From contig CAIYPD010000076.1 of the NCBI GenBank assembly GCA_903928075.1, positions 10,292 through 74,291 on the forward strand: a stretch of DNA of 64,000 nt, given 5' to 3'. Origin of the DNA: Candidatus Firestoneibacteriota bacterium (GTDB lineage Bacteria; Oederibacteriota; D2-FULL-39-29). Below are positions 622-51,608 of this stretch, piece after piece; positions within the stretch are counted from its first letter, which is position 1, and each line of letters opens with the position of its first letter. The notes beneath the pieces were generated by a model, which did no database searches, had not been told where the DNA came from, and saw only the letters and a list, made by a program, of their open reading frames with translations. The translations under genes were made by a program, and so were the position numbers.

Positions 622-2043
622 TTACAATAGACTTTTCAAAACCTTCCAGCGTCCACTTTTCGTCGGTCCAACATGTTTCACTATTCCTTCTTTTTGAAGT
701 TTTCTAAGATAATGGATAATAGAACTTTCCGTCATTCTGGTTTCCCGTGAAATCTGCTTTCTGGTTATTTCTGAATTCATTCTTATAGCATCAATTATTA
801 TTTGTACATTTCCTTTGTGTTTCTTGTGCGTTTCCTGTGTGTTTCTTGTGCGTTTCTTGTGCGTCTTCTGAATACCATTCCCAAAAGAATTATCCATATT
901 TCTATTTACCATTCTGTAAAACACCACCATGAATCCCGTTTTAAGTATTTTGAAGTCTACCTTAACTCCAGCTTCTTTGCACAAGCTATAAATCTTTTTC
1001 AAACCAGAACCCCATTTCTCGACTTCTCTGGACTTATACAAAATATCCGCTATAAGCGGATTTCTTAAAACGGATTGTTCTTCCTTTTTAATATAGTCCT
1101 GCGGAGTTAGCCCTTCGGGAAAATCTCCCGGATTCCAGATCTCTATACGGTTCTTAAATATTGCTATCTTATTACTTTCAGGTGCAAGGTAGTCCCTATG
1201 GCATAAAGAATTAACAAGTACTTCTCTAATAGCATCTACCGGAACCTCCGGGATTTCCTGCCGTTCAAGTCCAACAGTTTTCGCACGCCAATTCATTTTT
1301 TCTTTTATGTAATCCTCTGATTTTTTAAGAAGGTTGAAAATGTTGTCTTTGTATTGATTAATATCAAGGAATGTTATCTTGTCAACGCCGGCAAATACTG
1401 CGACTTGAACCTCCAGAGAATTGTTCTTGCAAAAGAGCACTTGCGCCGCATTTGAAAGTTTACTATTTTTTATCAGTCCTAGCTTTTTCAATACATTCGG
1501 GACATTGTCATACTTAAAGCTTATTCTGCCAGCAAGATTTGCTCTCTTGACATAGTCCTTTACTGTTCCAGTGTTAATATCCTTAAAAGAGCTATTGGAA
1601 ATTTGGACTTCCCATTTAAATTTATCGGCACTCTTTTTTATAATTACCTTTCTCATCTCGTTTGCGCTCAGTTGCTTATCTTCATCCGCAACTCTAATAT
1701 AAACGCGGCCATAAGCATGATATGGAATATCTTCGCCTTGAAACTCAATCTTTATACAGGATTTACCTTTAATCTTAACTGTATCTATTGAAGGATATAT
1801 CTTTGGTTCTATATGATCAGAAATTGCCCGAGAAATATCCCGTAAAGTTGAAGACCCGATCACCTGCCCTATAACTTCACCGTCATTTCTAACACCAAAA
1901 AATAGTTCACCTTTCTTATGCTTATTCAAAATGGAAGAAATGGAAATAACAGCTTCTTTAAGTTCAGAAGTTGATTTTTTAAATTCCAATACTTCAGATT
2001 CTTTCAATTCCATATCCGCCCCTGTTTGCATTATTACTATCAA
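622..2043 (-). CDS. AlbA_2 (Schlafen-like divergent AAA) + HATPase_c_4 + C-terminal winged-HTH protein; 'RecG C-terminal-like putative transcriptional regulator' family
   Basis: N-terminal ELKESEVLEFKKS...GELFFGVRNDGEVIG is the AlbA_2/Schlafen core. C-terminal ITRKQISRETRMTESSIIHYLRKLQKEGIV is a wHTH. Internal 11-bp tandem DNA repeat (TTGTGCGTTTC x4, about 805-875) encodes a THKK(H/R) low-complexity linker. Confidence 0.7.
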   Translation of the reverse strand: MIVIMQTGADMELKESEVLEFKKSTSELKEAVISISSILNKHKKGELFFGVRNDGEVIGQVIGSSTLRDISRAISDHIEPKIYPSIDTVKIKGKSCIKIEFQGEDIPYHAYGRVYIRVADEDKQLSANEMRKVIIKKSADKFKWEVQISNSSFKDINTGTVKDYVKRANLAGRISFKYDNVPNVLKKLGLIKNSKLSNAAQVLFCKNNSLEVQVAVFAGVDKITFLDINQYKDNIFNLLKKSEDYIKEKMNWRAKTVGLERQEIPEVPVDAIREVLVNSLCHRDYLAPESNKIAIFKNRIEIWNPGDFPEGLTPQDYIKKEEQSVLRNPLIADILYKSREVEKWGSGLKKIYSLCKEAGVKVDFKILKTGFMVVFYRMVNRNMDNSFGNGIQKTHKKRTRNTQETHKKHKGNVQIIIDAIRMNSEITRKQISRETRMTESSIIHYLRKLQKEGIVKHVGPTKSGRWKVLKSLL

Positions 2044-4579: not shown

Positions 4580-5692
4580 TGTTTGCAATAGCTTCTTTTT
4601 CCGCTCGATATAATACTTGAAATTTTCATAAGATACTTCAGGAGATATAGTGTGATCAATGGTAGGTATGTAACCGCCCTCTTCTCTCAGGGGCAGGAGC
4701 TTTTTTTCAAGTTCTTCATCTATCATTCTTTTATTGCCAAAAAGTTTTCTTTTATCAATTCCCCCTATAAGAGCAACATCTTTTCCGTATTCTTTCCTTA
4801 CTTTCACCGGGTCCATACCGGCAGCACCCTCGAGCGGCCAGATACAGGTTGCGCCCGCTTCGATAATAAGCGGAATCAAAGGTTCAATATTTCCGTCACT
4901 GTCAAGTTCTATGAATTTCACGCCTTTGCTTTTCACAAAATTGAACATTTGCTTATGCCGCGGCAGGAAAAACTCCCTGTAGGTGGCGGGAGAAAGCAGA
5001 GGTCCGGACTTGCAGGCAAAATCTTCATTGCAAATAAAAGTATCAATCTCAACTTCGTTGAGCGCTTTTTCTGTGACCTGCATAAAATATTCCACAAAAA
5101 AATCCAAAATTTCGTGTACAAGTTCCGGCTGGTCATAAAAAGCGTAGGAAAGCCGTTCCGTCCCCATCATCTCCCGCAAATTCCAGTAAAGGCCGGCAAA
5201 GCCGCAGTTATCGCATAAATAAAGGGGAAAATCCCTCTTCTTCCATTCTATTTTTTTCTTTTCCCAGTCCGCCGGATATCTTTCAGGAAGTTTAGAATCA
5301 AAATGTTTTTTAAATTCAAGAAAATCCACCCGGGTCTTTACATAGAAATCCATAAAGGTGTCCATGGACATCCTGGTCCCGCGCACTTCGCCTTCCTTTA
5401 AACCCCTCCGGGTCTGCCCCCAGTTATCAATATACACAATGTACCTTTCCGTCTCTTCTATTACCTTATGAAGGCCCGGCAGAGGGTCAAACTTCAGTTT
5501 AATATATTCCCGCCTGTCCAGCTCCGCTGCTTTTGGTTCACCCCGGAACCAGTCACCTTTGATATCTTCTTCCCTGGCCCCTTCGTCCAGCCACCTTTGA
5601 TAGGTCTGCCCCCAGACTCCGAGCTCATAGTTCGGTATCCTGTCAACCGCCTTAAAACTCATCGTATTTATATATCTTTCTCTCGCATTCAT
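4574..5692 (-). CDS. uroporphyrinogen-decarboxylase (URO-D) family protein, subfamily b (methyltransferase-like); likely start at 5692, ORF track extends to 5767
   Basis: N-terminal RERYINTMSFKAVDRIP is the URO-D/MtaA family signature (ERVLxAxxxExxDRVP). C-terminal GGYIPTIDH. SD GGAGGAAAAGGA precedes the ATG at 5690-5692. The 25-codon in-frame extension is translated from a conserved leader repeat. Confidence 0.75.
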   Translation of the reverse strand: MNARERYINTMSFKAVDRIPNYELGVWGQTYQRWLDEGAREEDIKGDWFRGEPKAAELDRREYIKLKFDPLPGLHKVIEETERYIVYIDNWGQTRRGLKEGEVRGTRMSMDTFMDFYVKTRVDFLEFKKHFDSKLPERYPADWEKKKIEWKKRDFPLYLCDNCGFAGLYWNLREMMGTERLSYAFYDQPELVHEILDFFVEYFMQVTEKALNEVEIDTFICNEDFACKSGPLLSPATYREFFLPRHKQMFNFVKSKGVKFIELDSDGNIEPLIPLIIEAGATCIWPLEGAAGMDPVKVRKEYGKDVALIGGIDKRKLFGNKRMIDEELEKKLLPLREEGGYIPTIDHTISPEVSYENFKYYIERKKKLLQTM

Positions 5693-5711
5693 AATATATC
5701 CTTTTCCTCCG

Positions 5712-5800
5712 CTTCTCCGCCAAAAAGCGTTGGCGGATTTCGCAATGCTCAACTTCTCATTATTCATCTTGTTTTTCTTCTATCTATTGCTCCATTGCTC
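5712..5800 (-). repeat. conserved ~90-bp 5' leader, copy A (about 90% identical to copy B at 16942-17037), containing a CCGCCAA..TTGGCGG hairpin and a CAATAGATAGAAG motif
   Basis: By-eye alignment to 16942-17037. On the sense strand it carries ATGAATAATGAGAAGTTGAGCATTGCGAAATCCGCCAACGCTTTTTGGCGGAGAAGC. Confidence 0.7.
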
Positions 5801-16923: not shown

Positions 16924-16941
16924 TTTTCTCCTTTTTATCAG

Positions 16942-17037
16942 CTTCTCCGCCACAAAGTGTTGGCGGATTTCGCTATGCTCAACTTCTCATAATTCATCTT
17001 GTTTTTCTTCTATCTATTATCTATTGTTCCATTATTC
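16942..17037 (-). repeat. conserved 5' leader, copy B (paralog of 5712-5800)
   Basis: About 90% identity to copy A by eye. Sense strand encodes a 19-codon upstream ORF MNYEKLSIAKSANTLWRRS ending at a TGA just before the SD. Contains a CCGCCA..TGGCGG hairpin. Confidence 0.7.
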
Positions 17038-17289
17038 TACCCCGGGAGAAGGTATGGATGAGGGTAATGGTTTTCTAATCTCCATAAGAGTCGTAAAGGT
17101 CTATAAATGAAAACAATATATTTCAACGATTTTAGACCTTAAGAACCTTAAGAACCTTAAAAACTTTATAAACTTCTTTTTCCCTCTTTCCCCAATTGTA
17201 TCTATTTGGCCAGCCAATTGCAAGAATTTTACCTGACGGTTCACTTAAGAAATCCTGAATCAGGATAAACTTGATTTTAATAAAGCATA

Positions 17290-29751: not shown

Positions 29752-31995
29752 TTATTTAACTCTTCTAATTCTGAGAGAATTTGTCACGACCGAGACCGAA
29801 CTCATGGCCATGAGCAGGGAAGCAAGCATGGGATTTAAAATATATCCGCTAAAAGGATAGAGCAGGCCGGCCGCAACGGGAATTCCGATGATGTTATAGA
29901 TAAAAGCCCAGAAGAGATTTTGCCGGATTATACGCATGGTGCGTTTTGAGAGTTTTATAAGTTCTAAAAACTTTGAAAGGTCGCCCTTAACCAGTACGGC
30001 ATCCGAAGCTTCCATAGCTATGTCGGTCCCGGTGCTTAAAGAAACACCGATATCCGCCTGGGTTAGAGCCGGGGCATCGTTTATCCCATCTCCCACCATG
30101 GCCACTTTATTCCCCTTCCTTTGTAAACCCCTGATAATTCCTGCTTTATCTGCAGGAAGAACTCTTGCTTTTACATCTTTAATGCCGAGAGTTTCTGCAA
30201 CCTGTTTAGCGACTGTTTCATTGTCCCCTGTGGCCAGAACCGGCCGGATTTTTATTTTTCTTAACTCCTCAATAACGGCCTTAGCATTTTCTCTGACCGT
30301 GTCAGATAGTGCAACAACTCCTAAAATATTTTTTTTATCGGCGAGACAAACAACAACTTTGCCTTCTTTTTCCAATACGGCGGCAACTTTTATAATTTTC
30401 AGGTAATTATTTCTAGCTTTCGCAAAATCCGGTTTCCCGGCAATATATTCCTTTCCCGCAATTTTCGCTTTTATCCCGAAACCCGACAGGGCTTTGAACT
30501 CTTTTGTTTCAAAAAGTGCCAGGCCCTGCTTTGCGGCTTTGCCTGTTATGCTTTTTGCTATAGGATGCTCGCTCTTTTTTTCCAGCGAAGCGATAATAGC
30601 CAGCAAATGCCCGGAGGGAAGCCCCTTAAAAGGAATTATATCTGTGACCGTAAGCGCGCCTTCCGTTAAAGTCGCGGTTTTATCAAAAACGACGACATTT
30701 ATTTTTTCACAACGCTCCAGGCTGTCAGCATTTTTTATGAGTATGCCTTTTTTTGCCGCCGTGCCGACTCCGACAATTATTCCTATAGGTGTTGCGAGGC
30801 CTAAAGCACAGGGACAGGCCACCAGAAGCACAGACATAAATCCGACCCCGGCCATAGCCGTCTTTCCTGCCAAAAACCATATTACGAAAGTAAGAAGCGC
30901 CACACCCATTACTGCAGGAACAAAAACATTTGCCACTCTGTCTACAAGGTTTTGAATAGCCGCTTTTGAGCCGGCCGCATTTTCAACCAGGCTTACAATC
31001 TGAAAGAGCACAGTGTCTTTTCCGACTTTCGTTGCTTTTATTTTAATGAAGCCGTTCTTATTTATGGTTCCGCCTATGACCTTGTCGCCCTTTTTTTTAT
31101 CAACCGGAAAACTTTCCCCGCTGAGCATTGACTCATCTACCGAAGATTCTCCAAAGAGCACAAGGCCGTCCACAGGCACCCGCTCCCCGGGCTTAACCAG
31201 TAAAATATCTCCGGTCTTAACATATTCAATATTTATATTCAGTTCTTTTTTGCCTTTTAATAATAAGGCGGTTTTTGGCTGTAAATTAAGCAGGCTCTTT
31301 AAACTTTCCAAAGCCAGTTTTCTTGATCTTGCTTCCAGAAGCTTCCCCATAAGAACCAGGGTAATTATTACGGCAGAAGTATCATAATAGACCGCGGGTG
31401 CGATACCCGCTTTAAAAAAATACTCCGGGAAAAATGTGGCTATACTGCTGTAAAGAAAAGCACTCAAAGTGCCTACGGCCACAAGAGTATTCATATCGGC
31501 ATACCCGGCAGGCGGTTTAAATGCAGAAAAAGCACCCTTAAAAAACCGGTTTCCGGACCAGAAGAGTACCGGCAGAGTGAGAAAAAACAGCATATAATTT
31601 ATTAGCCCCGGTTCTTTGATCAACGGCAGAACAAACATGGAGAGTAAAAAAATCAAACCGGAAAGTATGGCGGCAAGCAGAAACTTATTCTTGAGCCGCC
31701 GGTACTCTTCCTTTTCCATCTTTTCCATGGCCTCGGCTGAAGTACTGATACCAAAACCCGTATCTTCAACGGCTTTTTTTATTTTAGGTAAGGAGATTAT
31801 TTCGGGTTCATAAACTATCGAGGCGTTGTTAAGGGCGAGATTAACCTCCGCATTCTTAATACCTTTAAGCCCGCGGAGCTTTTTTTGCACTCTTTCCACG
31901 CAAGAGGCGCAATGAAGGCCGATTATATTGAATATTATTTTCTTATCTGACATAAAACTCCCGGAAAGAGCAGTGCTAGGAGGACAGAACACCAA
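29752..31995 (-). CDS. copA: copper-translocating P1B-type ATPase
   Basis: HMA GLHCASC. Transmembrane CPC ([11 protein letters not shown]). Phosphorylation site FDKTATLT. Hinge GDGINDAP. Confidence 0.9.
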
Positions 31996-32965
31996 CGAGC
32001 TGGTAATCGGAGATATCTATGGTTTTTTTGGTTTTTAATACTTTTTTTATATCGGTGGCTATGACCTTGTTGCCGACAACTCCGACCATCTTTCCGTATT
32101 TAGCTTTAAGTAAAAGCTCAACAGCTGCCTCTCCGAGCCTGGCCGCGAGCGCCCTGGAAAAAGCCGTAGGCGAGCCGCCTCTTTGCATATAGCCAAGGAC
32201 GCTTACTCTCACTTCCAGGCCTTTAGTCCTTTTTCTTATCTCTTTTGCTACATCCTGTCCGGACATTGCTCCCTCGGCTACGATTATAATACTGCTGTGC
32301 TTTCCTCTTTTATGACCCTTATCAAGAAGCGCGCAGATTTTTCCAATATCCGGCTTAATTTCCGGAATAAGTACCGCTTCTGCCCCGGAACCCAGCGCGA
32401 CTTCAAGGGCAATAAGCCCGTTATCTCGGCCCATCACCTCAACCACAAAAACCCTGTCATGAGAGGTCGCCGTGTCTCTTATTTTATCTATCGCAGAAAG
32501 CGCGGTATTAACGGCTGTATCAAAACCCACCGTATAGTCAGTATAGGCCAGATCATTATCGATAGACGCGGGTATATTGACAACGGGGACTTTCCAGTTA
32601 TAGTAGAGGGCGCCGCCGCCGGCAAGCGACCCGTTACCGCCGATAATCACAAGGGCGTCAATGCCGTAGCACAAAAGGTTCTCTACCGCTTTCTTCTGGT
32701 TCTTTTTATCCCTGAATTCGGGGCAACGAATAGTTTTTAAAATAGTACCGCCCCTGTTAATAATTCCGCTTACAGAGGTAGCTCCCATTTCCGCTATTTC
32801 ACCGTCTATCAGGCCGCGGTAGCCCCTGTTTATCCCGTAAACCTTAAGACCATGAAAAATTGCCGTACGCACAACGGCGCGAATAGCCGCATTCATCCCC
32901 GAAGCGTCACCGCCGGTAGTCAAAACTCCGATGGTTTTGATGGAGCTGCTCTTTTTAATTGACAT
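31976..32965 (-). CDS. pfkA: ATP-dependent 6-phosphofructokinase
   Basis: [41 protein letters not shown]. 329 aa. Confidence 0.9.
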
Positions 32966-32988: not shown

Positions 32989-33028
32989 GTCTGTAAAAGT
33001 CCGTAAAGGTCCATAATGTCTATAAAAG
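32989..33028 (+). repeat. tandem decamer array GTCYRTAAAG x4 (inverted partner of 33421-33500)
   Basis: GTCTGTAAAA GTCCGTAAAG GTCCATAAT GTCTATAAAAG read directly. Ends 7 bp before the stop of the four-helix-bundle gene. Confidence 0.8.
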
Positions 33029-33034
33029 ACCTTT

Positions 33035-33403
33035 CTATTCCTTGTGCTCTCTAAGGTATTTAATTAAATTGCTTATCATACTGCTTGTCTTTTCACATTT
33101 AGAGCGCGTGTTTTTATACAAAGTTTCGTTAACATAACTCTGATCAAGAGCAATATCCATTTGTGCTCTAAGCTCCCCGCAGGAACCTTTTGCTATAAAA
33201 AGGAACTGAGCAAACTCTTTATCTCCTTTTCTCTCAAATCCTTCCGCAATATTAGACATGATTGACACAGCGGACTTTCTAATTTGATTGATAAGGTAAA
33301 AATCATTTTGAAAACCCGATGATTTTGTAATCCCATAAATATCGTGTGTCAACTCCCGAGCTTGCTTGTAAATATTCAAATCCTCAAATCTCTTTGCTTT
33401 CAT
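33035..33403 (-). CDS. four-helix-bundle protein (23S rRNA IVS protein / Avd-like family)
   Basis: 122 aa. DLNIYKQARELTHDIY...FQNDFYLINQIRKSAVSIMSNIAEG...AKGSCGELRAQMDIA matches the TIGR02436/PF05635 pattern. Confidence 0.7.
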   Translation of the reverse strand: MKAKRFEDLNIYKQARELTHDIYGITKSSGFQNDFYLINQIRKSAVSIMSNIAEGFERKGDKEFAQFLFIAKGSCGELRAQMDIALDQSYVNETLYKNTRSKCEKTSSMISNLIKYLREHKE

Positions 33404-33420
33404 TCTCCCCTGTCTCCCCT

Positions 33421-33500
33421 TGTAGACTTTCCCCTTTACAAACCTTTACAGACCTTTACGGACTTTTACAGACCTTTGTAGACCTTTACGGACCTGTATT
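33421..33500 (-). repeat. tandem decamer array (CTTTACAGAC-like) x7
   Basis: CTTTACAAAC CTTTACAGAC CTTTACGGAC TTTTACAGAC CTTTGTAGAC CTTTACGGAC read directly. Begins 18 bp upstream of the four-helix-bundle start. Confidence 0.8.
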
Positions 33501-33503
33501 TAT

Positions 33504-34577
33504 CTACTTTTTCTTTTCCAAATCCTGGAGCATGAGTTTTCTGAAACCCTCGGGATTATGCGCCTTCGTAAGCGCCGCTTCAAAAGTTACGGTCTCTGCG
33601 TTAACCAGGTCTTTCAGCGCAACATCAAGCGTTTGCATTCCCTCTGATTTTCCGGTAAGCATGGTAGAAGGTATCTGCGCAAGCTGATTTTCCCGTATCA
33701 TATTTCTTATGGCGTGGTTGGCCACAAGTATTTCCAGCGCGACAGCCCGGCCTTTGTTATCAGCTTTCGGCAAAAGCACCTGGCAGACAATTCCTTCCAG
33801 GGTCAAAGAGAGCTGGCTTCTTATCTGCTGCTGCTGTGCCGGCGGAAAAACATCCACAATTCTGTCTATGGTCTGGGAAACGGAACCGGTGTGAAGAGTT
33901 GCAAAAACCAGATGGCCTGTTTCCGCGGCTGTAATCGCAGTAGCAATAGTTTCCAGATCGCGAATTTCACCTATTACTATTACATTGGGATCCTGTCTCA
34001 GCACTCTTTTAAGCGCATTATTGAAAGACAGAGTGTCCCTTCCGACCTCACGCTGATCCACTATCGCTTTTTTATCAGTGTGAATGAATTCCACAGGGTC
34101 CTCAATAGTAATGATATGACATCTTCTTGTCTGATTAATATGGTCTATCATTGCGGCAATTGTAGTTGATTTTCCGGAGCCGGTAGGGCCGGTAACGAGC
34201 ACCAGACCGCGCGGCCTGTCCGCTAATTTTTTTAAAACCTGCGGAAGCCCCAGCTCATCAATTGTCATTATTTTTAAAGGTATTACTCTGATTACACTCG
34301 CCAGGTTTCCTGTCTGTAGATAAACATTGACCCGGAACCGGGCCAGTTCAGGAACGGCATAGGCAAAATCAAGCTCCCTTTCCTCGTCAAATTTCTGCTT
34401 TAGCGCATCATCGGTCATCTGATTGATAAGATCCCTGACCTCCTGTAAAGTTAAGACCGGATACGACGAATCCACATAGACGCCGTCAATTCTAAAAGTC
34501 GGAGGGTGGCCTGCTTTTAAGTGCAGATCGGAGGCATTTTTCTTGACCATCTCTTTCAGAAAATCATTTATTTTCAT
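33504..34577 (-). CDS. pilT: type IV pilus retraction ATPase PilT
   Basis: 357 aa. Walker A GPTGSGKSTT. HIITIEDPVEF. Asp and His boxes. Confidence 0.9.
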   Translation of the reverse strand: MKINDFLKEMVKKNASDLHLKAGHPPTFRIDGVYVDSSYPVLTLQEVRDLINQMTDDALKQKFDEERELDFAYAVPELARFRVNVYLQTGNLASVIRVIPLKIMTIDELGLPQVLKKLADRPRGLVLVTGPTGSGKSTTIAAMIDHINQTRRCHIITIEDPVEFIHTDKKAIVDQREVGRDTLSFNNALKRVLRQDPNVIVIGEIRDLETIATAITAAETGHLVFATLHTGSVSQTIDRIVDVFPPAQQQQIRSQLSLTLEGIVCQVLLPKADNKGRAVALEILVANHAIRNMIRENQLAQIPSTMLTGKSEGMQTLDVALKDLVNAETVTFEAALTKAHNPEGFRKLMLQDLEKKK

Positions 34578-37434: not shown

Positions 37435-37470
37435 ATAACCCGGGATCTCTAAGCTTCACTATAGTATAAC

Positions 37471-37520
37471 CTTTACAGACCTTTACAGACCTTTACGAAC
37501 ATTTGCAGACTTTTATAGAC
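37471..37520 (-). repeat. tandem decamer array x5 (CTTTACAGAC family)
   Basis: CTTTACAGAC CTTTACAGAC CTTTACGAAC ATTTGCAGAC TTTTATAGAC. Confidence 0.8.
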
Positions 37521-47500: not shown

Positions 47501-47623
47501 AATTCCGCTAATCTCAATAGTTCCGGTTTTTTTTATTTTCTTCAAGAGCTCGCAGTAAACCGGACTCTTTAGGAGAAGGTTATCGAGGTTTTGAATGTAC
47601 GAAGCAGGTCTATAAAGATCCAT
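44516..47623 (-). CDS. mfd: transcription-repair coupling factor
   Basis: 1035 aa. Superfamily-2 helicase motifs GDVGFGKTEVALRAAF, DDEQKFGV, TATPIPRTL. C-terminal TRCF domain. Confidence 0.9.
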   Translation of the reverse strand: MDLYRPASYIQNLDNLLLKSPVYCELLKKIKKTGTIEISGIKGSADSFLAYSIFNDSGRPLLLILPDNDSALRAFYDLQVFFNEGLLLFPALEELEGVRLPPSKELKEQRLSGLKDLLQKKIKVAVFSRQSFTQPVPSKKEFSTAVFKLKKEKELNLLSLVEQLITAGYKMEAFVERKGDISVRGGILDIYSLTEEHPVRIDFFGDNIDTIRVFDLLTQKSTKEIEEIEIYPASEDSFKKGKVTEYLLENTIIYVEEPLSNEFSIPKISDFPVILNQRGTDGINIKTKSFPSFNGNAGLAIKELQKNEAEGTAVFLLFNSNGEQERFAEILTENNAVLSVKYLTGELHGGFHFVEAGVLVVTDNEIFGRYGNSRPATKRRRRFFKDGAPVKSVFEINTGEAVVHENYGIGRFLGLSSLELSGTKKDFVTLEYLNGDKLYIPVEDINKIQKYVGFEETPVLSNLGTSQWEKAKEKVKEDVKKMADDLLLLYAARETLKGHAFPPDTTWQKEFEDSFIYEETKDQLRAISEVKEDMEQGRPIDRLVCGDVGFGKTEVALRAAFKCALEGKQVAFVCPTTILAEQHYKTFKERMAEYPVSIAMLSRFSAKKEQGKTLEKLKAGTVDIVVGTHRLLQEDIVFKDLGMLILDDEQKFGVGQKEKLKKLRKTVYCISLSATPIPRTLYLSLSGIREISNINTPPSGRMAIQTYVIEYNEKIIRGAINKELARGGEVYYVYNKVKTIQRAASRLQRLVPEARVAVAHGQLPGPRLEKIMMDFYEKKYNVLVCSTIIEAGLDNPSANTIIIEDADDLGLSQLYQLRGRVGRSRVQAFAYLTYPKDRSLTDVAMRRLAAIEECDELSMGFSIAMKDLEIRGAGNILGKEQHGQIGRVGLELYMKLLKEAVNAAKGIEEGIPEEKIEIDIKTNAYLPDSYVSDGFLKINIYKDLMAVEDLPGVDKIKEELIDRFGTLPFEAENLLQIVKIRLVAKKAGISSIFESENSINFEMKNTGRGYFKLISNSSDKLNEVLTYFSALANSK

Positions 47624-47647
47624 AAATTTCTATCAAAGTCCTTAAAA

Positions 47648-47656
47648 GTCTGTAAG
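47648..47656 (+). repeat. single inverted copy of the decamer (GTCTGTAAG), about 110 bp left of the 47768 array
   Basis: Read directly. Together with the array it brackets a 110-bp AT-rich segment. Confidence 0.5.
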
Positions 47657-47699
47657 CAGAATTTTTTCGATATGAAATACATCGTATAGACAACATCCG

Positions 47700-47727
47700 T
47701 TGACAAAACGAAACAATTATTTATAAT
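47700..47727 (+). promoter_or_regulatory. consensus sigma70-like promoter (TTGACA-N16-TATAAT) on the plus strand, pointing into the decamer array
   Basis: TTGACA at 47700-47705, 16-nt spacer, TATAAT at 47722-47727. No plus-strand gene downstream. Confidence 0.35.
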
Positions 47728-47767
47728 CAATTTTTTCAATTCAATTAATATATTTCCTAAGTACAAA

Positions 47768-47808
47768 CCTTTTAAAGACCATTACAGACCTTTAATGACT
47801 TTTACGGA
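47768..47808 (-). repeat. tandem decamer array x4 (CTTTACAGAC family)
   Basis: CTTTTAAAGAC CATTACAGAC CTTTAATGAC TTTTACGGAC. Confidence 0.75.
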
Positions 47809-47818
47809 CTTTTTTTAC

Positions 47819-50336: not shown

Positions 50337-51608
50337 CTATTTTTTCACAATTTTCATCACTGTATCGGCCCATTCGGTAAGTCTTTTTGGTTCGTAGTTT
50401 ACCGTGCTCAAGTCCTTAAGGATGAATTCTACCGGGGTGCCGTTCTTTTTACAGTCAGTTATCACATCTTTTGTATCTTTTATTATGGCATCAAGTTCAA
50501 AGTTACCCCTGGAGAAAAACGCTGGGCTGGATTTCCTGGAAATCACATAATCCTTGCCAATCTGTTCCGTAGCATTTTTTACATCAGCCCAGGGACTTAT
50601 AGAGATTTTTCTCACATTGGGAAGTTTCCTGATAACCCCGATTTTTTTATCCAGCGGTTCACAGCAGCCGTAATACACGAGGCCAAACCTCTCATACCAT
50701 TTCTTGGCGTATTCTATCTCAAATTCGTCGTGCATAGCAGGCGAAGCCGTGGAAAATATCTGCGCCATCCCGAAGGTCCAGGTATCTTTTGCCCTGGGTT
50801 TTGCCGGGTCAAAGCCGGTCCCGATAAACTTTTCAAGGAAGGACGGCAGTTCGTTGGTATGGGCACCAGAGCAATGGATGGTTCGGAACCCGTAACCCAG
50901 CAAACCCTGCGTTTCCAACTGGTCCAGCCCTGCAAGGTACGCTTCCGAGAATCTGGAAATTATCTTGTGCATGAATTCCGGCCTTAGCGCCATGTCAAGA
51001 AGCAGCTCCCCCGCCCCGCGAAGCATTACTATAACATCCCATACCGGAAAGCCGTACATTATCCCTTCTTTTTTTACTTCAATTACCCCGGTAAAGATTT
51101 CCTGCATTGTTTCAAAATCTTTCTCGGTTTTCTCCTTGTTCAGCCTGATGGCGGGATTTTTTATTTTTTGAATATCTTCTTCTTCCTTAATCTGGTCATT
51201 GTAGAAGTGCCCCACGACATCATTATTAACATCGGTCACGGCCTTTTCTGTTTCCTTAACCTTTATACCAAAATCCCACCCTTCGACAACCGGGGAGGAA
51301 CGCAGAACCGGCTCTATTACCATATCTGTCCTGAAATGCTTCCACTTATAAAGTTCGCGCCTTAACTTTGTTTCTATATTCCGGCAGAAGGGGTCAGAGG
51401 TCTTTAATGTTAACTCCCCTTCAGCGTTCAATTCATGCCACGGCAGTTGATCTATCATGACCATCGGCCGCACCGGCTTTAAACTGTTTATGGCTTTCCA
51501 AAGGGTAATCGTCTCCTTTTGTACGGGAAGTTCTGCTATTTCTCTATACTTTTTACCCAGCTCCCTGAGTATCCCCTTGTCTTGCGCGCTTATTGAAATC
51601 ATTTCCAT
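50337..51608 (-). CDS. paralog family 'c' protein (copy 2 of 3)
   Basis: ELPVQKETITLWKAINSLKPVRPMVMIDQLPWHELN ... YGCCEPLDKKIGVIRKLPNVRKISISPWAD ... PVEFILKDLSTV. SD AAAAAGGAGA. Confidence 0.6.
   Translation of the reverse strand: MEMISISAQDKGILRELGKKYREIAELPVQKETITLWKAINSLKPVRPMVMIDQLPWHELNAEGELTLKTSDPFCRNIETKLRRELYKWKHFRTDMVIEPVLRSSPVVEGWDFGIKVKETEKAVTDVNNDVVGHFYNDQIKEEEDIQKIKNPAIRLNKEKTEKDFETMQEIFTGVIEVKKEGIMYGFPVWDVIVMLRGAGELLLDMALRPEFMHKIISRFSEAYLAGLDQLETQGLLGYGFRTIHCSGAHTNELPSFLEKFIGTGFDPAKPRAKDTWTFGMAQIFSTASPAMHDEFEIEYAKKWYERFGLVYYGCCEPLDKKIGVIRKLPNVRKISISPWADVKNATEQIGKDYVISRKSSPAFFSRGNFELDAIIKDTKDVITDCKKNGTPVEFILKDLSTVNYEPKRLTEWADTVMKIVKK

What the first reader, a model, noticed from the sequence alone, without database searches (positions are those of the whole stretch)
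32989..33500. Four-helix-bundle (Avd/IVS-like) gene bracketed by inverted arrays of a tandem decamer
Four copies of GTCYRTAAAG end 7 bp before the gene's stop. Seven copies of the reverse complement (CTTTACAGAC) begin 18 bp upstream of its start. The 10-bp period equals one helical turn, which suggests phased protein binding. Inverted arrays flanking a single small gene look like a mobile or recombinogenic cassette, or a tightly regulated unit. Avd-type four-helix bundles are accessory proteins of diversity-generating retroelements, but no reverse transcriptase or template/variable repeat pair is present here.
Basis: partly seen in the sequence, partly recalled or inferred. Interest (0 to 1): 0.65.

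Follow-up and report, generated by a model that had tools for sequence, protein, structure and literature searches.

The report
Intervening-sequence-type gene cassette with tandem-repeat arms
A small four-helix-bundle gene of the kind first found inside ribosomal RNA "intervening sequences" sits here between two metabolic genes, enclosed by two inverted arms made of a 10-base tandem repeat; the same gene-plus-repeat-arm layout recurs across bacterial phyla, each with its own repeat unit, and links this uncharacterised protein family to enigmatic repeats scattered between genes.

Summary
A PF05635/TIGR02436 gene (33035-33403, minus strand) is enclosed by inverted arrays of the decamer GTCYRTAAAG (33419-33495 and 32989-33028). 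The arms are predicted to pair into a roughly 40-bp RNA stem.

It is not a diversity-generating retroelement part: there is no reverse transcriptase and no template/variable repeat pair. Helical phasing is not the conserved property either.

The same decamer arrays occur at three other intergenic sites in the window. They also occur in 41 of 43 related metagenome loci that lack the gene, with a fixed polarity.

The link to the gene is still not a coincidence:
- The bracket is kept in five Firestonebacteria species, although synonymous sites are saturated.
- More distant relatives have an empty, overlapping yjbQ/pfk junction.
- PF05635 genes in Bacteroidota, eight cyanobacterial plasmid loci, Dadabacteria-like bacteria, Gemmatimonadota, Xanthomonas (accB-accC) and a genuine Azospirillum 23S rRNA intervening sequence are all bracketed by inverted arrays of their own 7-8-base unit.

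Best reading: an intervening-sequence-type cassette inserted in an operon. Its arms pair in the transcript, which makes a likely RNase III substrate, and its repeat has spread to other intergenic sites. The protein's function remains unknown. The literature I searched does not report the gene-repeat link.

The parts
33419..33495 (-). 5' arm on the coding strand: seven units of GTCYRTAAAG (written CCTTTACRGA on the + strand). It starts 8 nt after the pilT stop.
   Evidence: it pairs with the 3' arm in both the minimum-energy and the centroid fold
33404..33410 (-). Shine-Dalgarno-like GGGGAGA directly upstream of the ATG of the PF05635 gene
   Evidence: read from the sequence; the same GGGGAGAC region is kept in the orthologous loci L117 and L120
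33035..33403 (-). PF05635 / TIGR02436 four-helix-bundle gene (23S rRNA intervening-sequence protein family), 122 aa
   Evidence: PDB 2GSC (XCC0516) E = 4e-13; dN/dS 0.07-0.13 among orthologues
32989..33028 (-). 3' arm on the coding strand: four units of CTTTAYRGAC. It ends 23 nt upstream of the pfkA start codon.
33504..34577 (-). Upstream flanking gene, pilT-like ATPase (T2SSE). Its stop codon abuts the 5' arm.
31976..32965 (-). Downstream flanking gene, 6-phosphofructokinase. In relatives without the cassette it overlaps yjbQ.
47608..47814 (.). Gene-less element of the same family: arms at 47608-47655 and 47762-47814 around a 106-nt core that holds a perfect TTGACA-16-TATAAT at 47700-47727 (+). 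It lies between the lemA stop and the mfd start.
   Evidence: RNA fold z = -3.2
37469..37520 (-). Solo array of five units, in GTCYRTAAAG orientation on the coding strand, starting directly after the nth stop codon. An array sits at the same position in another species (L117 5721-5740).
17081..17175 (.). Fourth array locus: G-type units at 17081-17108, a short core, and C-type 9-nt units at 17134-17175 with the inner motif TCAACGATTTTAGACC

Best explanation
The locus is an intervening-sequence-type PF05635 cassette of about 507 bp (32989-33495). It consists of a small four-helix-bundle gene enclosed by two inverted arms, each a tandem array of a lineage-specific short repeat (here the decamer GTCYRTAAAG).

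What is shown:
- The cassette is an insertion into a formerly overlapping yjbQ/pfk junction of the pilT-yjbQ-pfk gene string.
- It has since been inherited vertically under purifying selection.
- Arms and gene belong together. The same architecture recurs around PF05635 genes across phyla, including a genuine 23S rRNA intervening sequence.
- In Firestonebacteria the same repeat also occupies many other intergenic regions, as gene-less inverted pairs and solo arrays. These always carry the G-rich strand after a stop codon and the C-rich strand before a start codon.

What is inferred:
- The cassette is transcribed with its neighbours.
- The two arms pair into a stem of about 28-40 bp that loops out the gene.
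- As in ribosomal RNA intervening sequences, this stem is a substrate for RNase III and makes insertion inside an operon or an rRNA tolerable.
- The purine-rich 5' arm lies at, or doubles as, the ribosome-binding region of the gene, so stem formation would gate its translation.
- The gene-less copies are derivatives of such cassettes.

The biochemical role of the protein is not established.
For: - Anatomy and statistics.
- Family assignment.
- RNA fold: the arms pair in the minimum-energy and the centroid structure, z = -4.0. No intrinsic terminator is predicted between pilT, the gene and pfk.
- Vertical inheritance with arms kept: five species at 100/75/75/70/65% identity, all in pilT-(yjbQ)-X-pfk, with a G-type array upstream and a C-type array downstream. 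dN/dS is 0.07-0.13 and dS exceeds 1, so neutral flanks would have been randomised.
- Empty sites: L187 and L188 have yjbQ and pfk overlapping, no cassette and no arrays.
- Recurrence with different units: Riemerella GGTTYAA, Nostoc GGGAAAA, Stanieria GGCAGAR, Calothrix GGGTGTA, Picosynechococcus GGAGATAA (between cas10 and cmr3), Nostoc TCAGGAG, N. edaphicum GGGAACA, Geminocystis GGGAARA, Gemmatirosa GGGCAGGA. Also Dadabacteria-like GGTTCAAG and Xanthomonas campestris GGGAATC between accB and accC.
- Azospirillum L182 lies inside 23S rRNA (Rfam LSU, 510 bits) and has arms of GGACRGA heptamers.
- The Coxiella intervening sequence has the same anatomy: 428 nt, a 28-bp terminal stem, the PF05635 gene in the loop, and cleavage by RNase III in vitro (PMC4990558).
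- In Riemerella the arrays exist only at the cassette within 102 kb.
- Dispersal and polarity in Firestonebacteria: (Fisher p = 6e-4). G-type arrays lie upstream of canonical terminators in L125 and L165 and are therefore transcribed.
Against: - No transcript data. RNase III cleavage and even co-transcription are inferred.
- A plain stem does not need tandem repeats, and it does not explain why the G-rich arm is always 5'.
- Many arrays are solo and cannot form a local stem.
- In L120/L152 and in Gemmatirosa the gene is flanked by two C-type arrays with the G-type array further upstream, so the pairing partner is ambiguous.
- No target-site duplication or other footprint of insertion was seen.
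- The Coxiella paper doubts that the protein is made in vivo there, whereas here it is under strong purifying selection.
Confidence: 0.55

Rival explanations
1. The arrays are binding sites for the encoded protein. PF05635 proteins form pentamers and are relatives of Avd, which binds nucleic acids. On this reading the protein recognises the tandem units, as single-stranded RNA or as DNA, at its own gene (autoregulation) and at all dispersed arrays. It might even maintain or spread them, as REP-associated transposases (RAYTs) do for the REP sequences that flank them.
For: - The repeat unit follows protein similarity. Stanieria and Nostoc proteins at 80% identity share GGCAGAR. N. edaphicum and Geminocystis at 72% share GGGAAnA. 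The TCAGGAG group is 76-98% identical. Riemerella, the Dadabacteria-like clade and Firestonebacteria (42-60%) have related GTTCAAG-type units.
- One gene copy is flanked by inverted copies of a repeat that is dispersed genome-wide in Firestonebacteria and in Xanthomonas (with PMC4692102).
- The strand polarity is conserved, which a mere stem does not need.
- The gene is under purifying selection.
- 2GSC and 2RLD each hold five chains of one sequence.
Against: - No binding data exist.
- Covariation of unit and protein is equally explained by inheritance or transfer of the cassette as one piece.
- Nostoc ATCC 53789 (GGGAAAA) and Geminocystis (GGGAARA) share a unit at only 36% protein identity.
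- The protein has no known catalytic motif for DNA mobility.
- In Riemerella there are no dispersed arrays to act on.
Confidence: 0.25
2. The gene and the arrays are unrelated. The decamer arrays would be a generic intergenic signal of this genome (curved DNA, UP element, nucleoid-protein or terminator-associated element) that happens to sit after pilT and before pfk, with the PF05635 gene merely lying between them.
For: - Arrays occur at three other intergenic sites in the window and in 41 of 43 array-bearing metagenome loci without the gene.
- The general rule (G-type after stops, C-type before starts) by itself predicts the arrangement seen here.
- Xanthomonas and Nostoc heptamer repeats show the same rule (PMC4692102).
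Against: - The same bracketing with unrelated units occurs in at least eight other lineages.
- It includes a 23S rRNA intervening sequence, where no neighbouring genes can supply the arms.
- It includes Riemerella, where no other arrays exist in 102 kb.
- Relatives with the empty site lack both the arms and the gene.
- The period is not conserved (7, 8, 9 or 10 nt), which argues against helical phasing.
Confidence: 0.07
3. It is a currently active DNA transposon whose terminal inverted repeats are multi-site ends, with the gene-less pairs as its miniature non-autonomous derivatives (MITEs).
For: - One gene-bearing copy stands beside many gene-less copies that share the arms and an inner-arm motif (GTAAAAGCTTGA / TCAAGCTTTTAC).
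- Empty sites exist in relatives.
- Related cassettes lie on plasmids, next to transposases, and inside cas, restriction-modification and accBC operons.
Against: - The locus is syntenic in five species with saturated synonymous divergence.
- The solo array after nth is also positionally conserved.
- Xanthomonas repeats are reported as positionally stable between species (PMC4692102).
- No target-site duplication was seen.
- The 122-aa helical bundle has no recognised transposase or recombinase fold.
Confidence: 0.08
4. It is the accessory protein (Avd) of a diversity-generating retroelement whose other parts lie elsewhere.
For: Avd belongs to the same fold and Pfam clan (PMC10053308 cites PF05635).
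Against: - No reverse transcriptase domain among the called genes within 10 kb on either side.
- No template/variable repeat pair in 64 kb. The only long repeats are a paralogous coding pair without adenine-specific differences and a 90-nt leader.
- The orthologues in five species keep the same retroelement-free context.
Confidence: 0.02

Closest known systems
23S rRNA intervening sequences that carry a PF05635 gene (Leptospira, Coxiella; here also Azospirillum lipoferum, L182)
   Same: - A PF05635 gene of about 120 aa lies in the loop of an element of 430-510 nt.
- The termini are inverted repeats that form a stem of about 28 bp. In Coxiella the element is 428 nt with a 28-bp stem cut by RNase III (PMC4990558). 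The window element has a 28-nt, 93% core that extends to about 40 bp.
- The Azospirillum arms are likewise tandem heptamers.
   Different: - This element lies between protein-coding genes (pilT and pfk), not in helix 25 or 45 of 23S rRNA.
- The arms are overt tandem arrays of a decamer.
- The same arms are dispersed at other intergenic sites.
- The gene is clearly under purifying selection.
- RNase III processing is untested here.
Dispersed polar heptamer repeats of Xanthomonas (GGGAATC) and Nostoc (GGGGAYT; the short tandemly repeated repetitive sequences of cyanobacteria)
   Same: - Intergenic tandem arrays of a 7-10-nt unit, either solo or in convergent inverted pairs.
- The G-rich strand lies downstream of genes on the coding strand and upstream of genes on the non-coding strand.
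- Positions are conserved between species while lengths vary, and the function is unknown (PMC4692102; compare).
- The Xanthomonas PF05635 gene is bracketed by exactly this unit.
   Different: - The unit is 10 nt, AT-rich and has no G-runs, so the G-quadruplex idea proposed for the heptamers cannot apply.
- That paper did not connect the repeats with PF05635 genes.
REP / BIME sequences and their RAYT genes
   Same: - A gene is flanked by inverted copies of a short repeat.
- The repeat is otherwise dispersed in intergenic regions of the same genome.
- The repeat type follows the gene lineage.
- The repeats sit after stop codons within operons.
   Different: - The gene is a four-helix bundle, not a Y1 (IS200/IS605-type) transposase.
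- The repeats are tandem arrays rather than single imperfect palindromes.
- No evidence shows that the protein acts on the repeats.
- The comparison rests on my own knowledge of the REP/RAYT literature, not on a test here.
Correia / NEMIS-type miniature inverted-repeat elements
   Same: - Gene-less elements of 100-200 bp with terminal inverted repeats.
- They lie in intergenic regions, are co-transcribed, can carry promoters and are processed by RNase III. Compare the element at 47608-47814 with its consensus promoter.
   Different: - The arms here are tandem repeats of variable copy number.
- No target duplication was seen.
- Positions are stable between species.
- The comparison rests on my own knowledge.
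Avd of diversity-generating retroelements
   Same: Same fold family: a small four-helix bundle that assembles as a pentamer.
   Different: No reverse transcriptase, no template/variable repeats and no target gene.

Membership tests
PF05635 / TIGR02436 (23S rRNA intervening-sequence protein; four helix bundle protein) | Match to the family profile above the curated cut-off over its full length | tested here: met
   PF05635: 118.3 bits against a cut-off of 33.8, profile positions 1-105 of 106. TIGR02436: 111.3 bits against 24. PDB 2GSC: E = 4e-13.
PF05635 / TIGR02436 | Conserved motif GxxRxxxSxxxNxxE, noted for XCC0516 homologues (PMC3936711) | tested here: met
   The window protein has N-Q-I-R-K-S-A-V-S-I-M-S-N-I-A-E-G. 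The R...S...N..E spacing is kept in all five orthologues. The first position is N instead of G.
Intervening-sequence-type element (as in 23S rRNA) | Terminal inverted repeats that enclose the gene and can form a long stem | tested here: met
   28 nt at 93% complementarity. The arms pair in the minimum-energy and centroid folds, z = -4.0. The flank score ranks 1 of 52.
Intervening-sequence-type element (as in 23S rRNA) | Located within a 23S (or 16S) rRNA gene | tested here: not met
   No rRNA or any other Rfam family in the window. The flanking genes are pilT and pfk.
Intervening-sequence-type element (as in 23S rRNA) | Excised from the precursor RNA by RNase III | not testable with these tools
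   Needs transcript end mapping or an in vitro assay as in PMC4990558.
Diversity-generating retroelement (Avd as accessory protein) | An adjacent reverse transcriptase | tested here: not met
   No RVT family among the genes called within 10 kb on either side on the source contigs.
Diversity-generating retroelement (Avd as accessory protein) | A template repeat / variable repeat pair with adenine-specific differences | tested here: not met
   The direct repeats of at least 40 nt in the window are the arrays, a paralogous coding pair (72%, differences not adenine-specific) and a 90-nt leader.
Dispersed polar short-tandem-repeat arrays (Xanthomonas GGGAATC / cyanobacterial type) | Many intergenic loci per genome, solo or as convergent pairs | tested here: met
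   Four loci in 64 kb. Three loci in Firestonebacteria bin-3360. 43 metagenome loci, 46 of 51 non-redundant arrays intergenic.
Dispersed polar short-tandem-repeat arrays (Xanthomonas GGGAATC / cyanobacterial type) | G-rich strand downstream of genes on the coding strand and upstream of genes on the non-coding strand | tested here: met
   Within 45 nt of a boundary: after stops 17 G-type against 4 C-type; before starts 8 C-type against 1 G-type; Fisher p = 6e-4. Gene calls were made with a simple longest-ORF rule.
REP-RAYT pair | The flanked gene encodes a Y1 (IS200/IS605-type) transposase | tested here: not met
   The only Pfam match is PF05635.
Miniature inverted-repeat transposable element / DNA transposon | Target-site duplication and presence/absence polymorphism | tested here: inconclusive
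   Empty sites exist in distant relatives. No duplication is recognisable at that divergence, and all contigs of the same species carry the cassette.

The most novel reading that the evidence does not exclude
PF05635 proteins are the dedicated partners of lineage-specific short tandem repeats. On this reading each pentamer recognises the repeated units of its own cassette arms, as RNA or DNA. Through that recognition it would control, maintain or disseminate the dispersed intergenic repeat arrays: the Firestonebacteria decamers, Xanthomonas GGGAATC and the cyanobacterial heptamers. This would be a gene-plus-repeat partnership analogous to RAYT and REP but built on a non-enzymatic helical bundle. 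It would give a function both to a protein family that has lacked one since 1993 and to repeat families that have lacked one since about 1990.
Probability: 0.3. Interest if true: 0.85.

Novelty: new variant of a known kind. Interest (0 to 1): 0.68.

Why it matters
PF05635 is a very large family: more than 5,000 clusters match this one query at E below 1e-10. It is found in rRNA intervening sequences, cas operons, restriction-modification operons and plasmids. Recent papers I read still call it functionally uncharacterised.

Dispersed polar 7-10-nt tandem repeats in Xanthomonas and cyanobacteria are also unexplained. This locus led to a simple, checkable rule that joins the two. PF05635 genes come as cassettes whose arms are inverted arrays of a lineage-specific short repeat, and in some genomes that same repeat is the dispersed one.

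Three consequences follow:
- The ribosomal intervening sequences become one special case of a general operon-invading cassette.
- The G-quadruplex and helical-phasing explanations cannot be general.
- Tractable experimental systems are named, notably Xanthomonas XCC0516 (structure 2GSC) between accB and accC, where accC has no Shine-Dalgarno sequence other than the C-rich arm.

Tried and rejected
- tblastn of the protein against the window found no second copy or remnant, including at the gene-less elements.
- The exact-protein look-up returned only the same locus.
- Rfam found nothing in the window.
- The promoter and terminator scans gave nothing convincing for the gene itself.
- The 134-nt repeat at 50542/57655 was checked as a possible template/variable repeat pair and rejected as paralogous coding sequence.
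- Literature searches for PF05635, S23 ribosomal protein plus tandem repeat, GGGAATC and related terms found no paper that links the protein family to repeat arms. The library is incomplete, so this is not proof of novelty.
- Covariation counting on the arms was not attempted, because arrays of variable copy number cannot be aligned in register.
- Structure prediction was not run, because a solved homologue exists.
- The G-quadruplex idea was rejected for this unit because it has no G-runs.
- Helical phasing was rejected because the period is not conserved.

Full report
**1. The observation**

- A 122-aa gene lies on the minus strand at 33035-33403. It matches PF05635 (E = 2.3e-34) and TIGR02436 (E = 2.5e-32).
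- It lies between a pilT-like ATPase (33504-34577) and 6-phosphofructokinase (31976-32965), all on the minus strand.
- Upstream of it on the coding strand are seven units of GTCYRTAAAG (33419-33495). Downstream are four units of the reverse complement (32989-33028).

The evidence that this is not chance:
- Tandem Repeats Finder calls a period of 10.
- The best arm pair is 28 nt at 93% complementarity.
- The decamer is enriched over shuffles: 16 matches against 5.6 expected, reached by 0 of 100 shuffles.
- The flank-to-flank inverted-repeat score of this gene is the highest of 52 genes in the window: 23 against 12.5 for the next and a median of 7.5.

**2. The arrays are not private to this gene**

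The same unit forms arrays at three further places in the window.
- 37469-37520 is a solo array directly after the nth stop codon.
- 47608-47655 and 47762-47814 form an inverted pair around a gene-less 106-nt core, between lemA and mfd.
- 17081-17108 and 17134-17175 form another pair.

The nearest named relatives of the protein are from Candidatus Firestonebacteria. A Firestonebacteria genome bin has further intergenic arrays without the gene.

A metagenome scan with a three-unit pattern returned 43 loci, 334 kb in total. A profile built from 120 homologues finds the gene only in the two loci that are the orthologous site.

The arrays are almost always intergenic and follow one architecture:
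- stop codon, then (GTCYRTAAAG)n;
- a core of 10 to about 110 nt;
- (CTTTAYRGAC)n, then 20-35 nt, then the start codon.

Solo arrays keep the orientation of the arm they represent. Within 45 nt of a boundary, 17 G-type against 4 C-type arrays follow stop codons, and 8 C-type against 1 G-type precede start codons (p = 6e-4).

In L125 and L165 the G-type array is followed by a canonical terminator, so it is transcribed as 3' untranslated sequence.

**3. The gene-array link is nevertheless real**

(a) Synteny. The gene is syntenic in five species at 100, 75, 75, 70 and 65% identity, always pilT-(yjbQ)-X-pfk. In all five a G-type array lies upstream and a C-type array downstream, although copy number, unit variants and even the period (8-10 nt) differ. 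dN/dS is 0.07-0.13 and synonymous sites are saturated. The protein is therefore functional, and neutral flanks would have decayed.

(b) Empty sites. In more distant Firestonebacteria (Pfk about 71% identical), yjbQ and pfk overlap. There is no cassette and there are no arrays. Arms plus gene are thus one insertion.

(c) Other phyla. PF05635 genes elsewhere have the same bracket with their own units.
- In a Dadabacteria-like clade the unit is the octamer GGTTCAAG. Gene callers read it through as an N-terminal 'FKGSRVQG' in about 35 of the 120 best homologues. An inverted array lies downstream.
- Of 14 plasmid-borne loci examined, 12 have inverted tandem-repeat arms, 2 have one arm, and none has neither.
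- Their units are GGTTYAA (Riemerella), GGGAAAA, GGCAGAR, GGGTGTA, GGAGATAA (between cas10 and cmr3), TCAGGAG, GGGAACA, GGGAARA and GGGCAGGA.

(d) A genuine rRNA case. One of these, in Azospirillum lipoferum, lies inside 23S rRNA (Rfam LSU, 510 bits). It is a genuine intervening sequence with arms of GGACRGA heptamers.

(e) Riemerella. The arrays occur only at the cassette within 102 kb.

(f) Xanthomonas. The X. campestris orthologue of XCC0516 (PDB 2GSC) lies between accB and accC. It is bracketed by GGGAATC units upstream and their complement downstream. Its GTG start codon lies inside the array, and the C-rich arm abuts the accC start codon. GGGAATC is the unit of about 185 dispersed Xanthomonas repeat loci, 70-75 of them convergent pairs. 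They have the same polarity rule and positional stability, and their function is unknown (PMC4692102). That paper does not mention the protein.

**4. What the comparison excludes**

- Helical phasing is not conserved, since units are 7, 8, 9 or 10 nt.
- G-quadruplex potential is not conserved, since the decamer has no G-runs.
- A retroelement role is excluded. There is no reverse transcriptase within 10 kb and no template/variable repeat pair.

What is conserved:
- a cassette of about 450-550 nt;
- the G-rich arm 5' on the coding strand, close to or overlapping the ribosome-binding site or start codon;
- the complementary arm 3';
- outer ends that abut the neighbours' stop and start codons.

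**5. Mechanism**

The anatomy equals that of the ribosomal intervening sequences. The Coxiella element is 428 nt, its terminal repeats form a 28-bp stem, the PF05635 gene is in the loop, and RNase III cuts the stem in vitro (PMC4990558).

For the window element the arms pair in both the minimum-energy and the centroid structure (z = -4.0). The gene-less element folds likewise (z = -3.2). No terminator is predicted within the cassette flanks. In relatives the neighbouring genes are translationally overlapping, which argues that the cassette is transcribed within the operon.

I therefore take the RNA stem, probably processed by RNase III, as the most likely way the element works and is tolerated. 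This step is inferred, not shown.

The model leaves three things unexplained: the tandem nature of the arms, the fixed polarity, and the solo arrays. These are better served by the rival in which the pentameric protein recognises the repeated units.

The unit tracks protein similarity. This fits that rival, but it equally fits inheritance of the cassette as a block.

**6. Gene-less copies**

Several gene-less copies share an inner-arm motif (GTAAAAGCTTGA / TCAAGCTTTTAC) with the cassettes of two species. A second inner motif (GGTCTAAAATCGTTGA) marks another subfamily. One gene-bearing copy beside many gene-less copies resembles an autonomous element with its miniature derivatives, or RAYT with REP. 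However, the positions are old and stable.

**7. Literature**

The papers found call PF05635 uncharacterised. They note it in cas loci and in rRNA insertions of candidate phyla. None of my searches found a description of tandem-repeat arms or of the link to dispersed repeats. The library is partial.

**8. Verdict**

The element is a new variant of a known kind: an intervening-sequence-type cassette outside rRNA with tandem-repeat arms. The general rule it revealed looks unreported and is directly testable.

Noticed in passing
window 47700-47727 (+), inside the gene-less element 47608-47814: A perfect sigma-70 consensus (TTGACA, 16 nt, TATAAT) lies in the core. It points antisense to the flanking lemA and mfd genes, into the right arm and the 3' end of lemA. 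The longest mfd reading frame starts inside the left arm (MDLYRP...).
   Followed up: partly
window 5699-5788 and 16929-17018: A 90-nt repeat (92% identical) lies just upstream of two minus-strand genes and contains the hairpin CCGCCAAAAAGCGTTGGCGG. A similar motif occurs in L159. It may be a conserved leader. There is no Rfam match.
   Followed up: no
L137, L146, L159, L167 (and window 17119-17139 in reverse): The motif GGTCTAAAATCGTTGAGGGATATTTATT recurs directly inside the G-type arrays, often followed by another shared sequence of about 60 nt (GTGTATCTGTGCCATCTGTTTTTTATCC...). This looks like a second subfamily of array-associated elements.
   Followed up: partly
L185 10331-10375 (Xanthomonas campestris accB-XCC0516-accC): The essential accC gene starts immediately after the C-rich arm (…CCCTATTCCC ATG) with no Shine-Dalgarno-like sequence. 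Its translation may therefore depend on the cassette's structure or on coupling.
   Followed up: no
L133 5856-5890 and L166 (after stop codons): Octamer arrays (GTACAAGG x4) occupy the after-stop position, with a decamer C-type array before the next start codon. Different unit families thus seem to be combined in one intergenic region.
   Followed up: no
L120 9798-10424 / L152, and L183 (Gemmatirosa): A variant layout recurs: G-array, short core, C-array, then the gene, then a second C-array. This gives the G-arm two alternative partners. It is either a possible switch or a tandem of a gene-less element and a cassette.
   Followed up: partly
L125 / L145, about 4870-4985: Five tandem copies of a 22-nt unit (CCTGTCTGACACGATAAGCTCT) follow the terminator downstream of a G-type array.
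   Followed up: no
window 802-869: An 11/22-nt tandem repeat (GTTTCTTGTGC, 4.5 copies) that is unrelated to the decamer family.
   Followed up: no
L168 and L169: In the octamer clade the PF05635 gene follows radC in both loci. In L168 the radC-PF05635 pair sits between hsdR and hsdS of a type I restriction-modification system. The conserved C-terminal tail (GSKFKGSKFK) is itself encoded by array-like octamers.
   Followed up: partly
L123 and L124: The contigs of two orthologous loci end within or next to the arrays. This suggests that these repeats break metagenome assemblies and are under-represented in bins.
   Followed up: no
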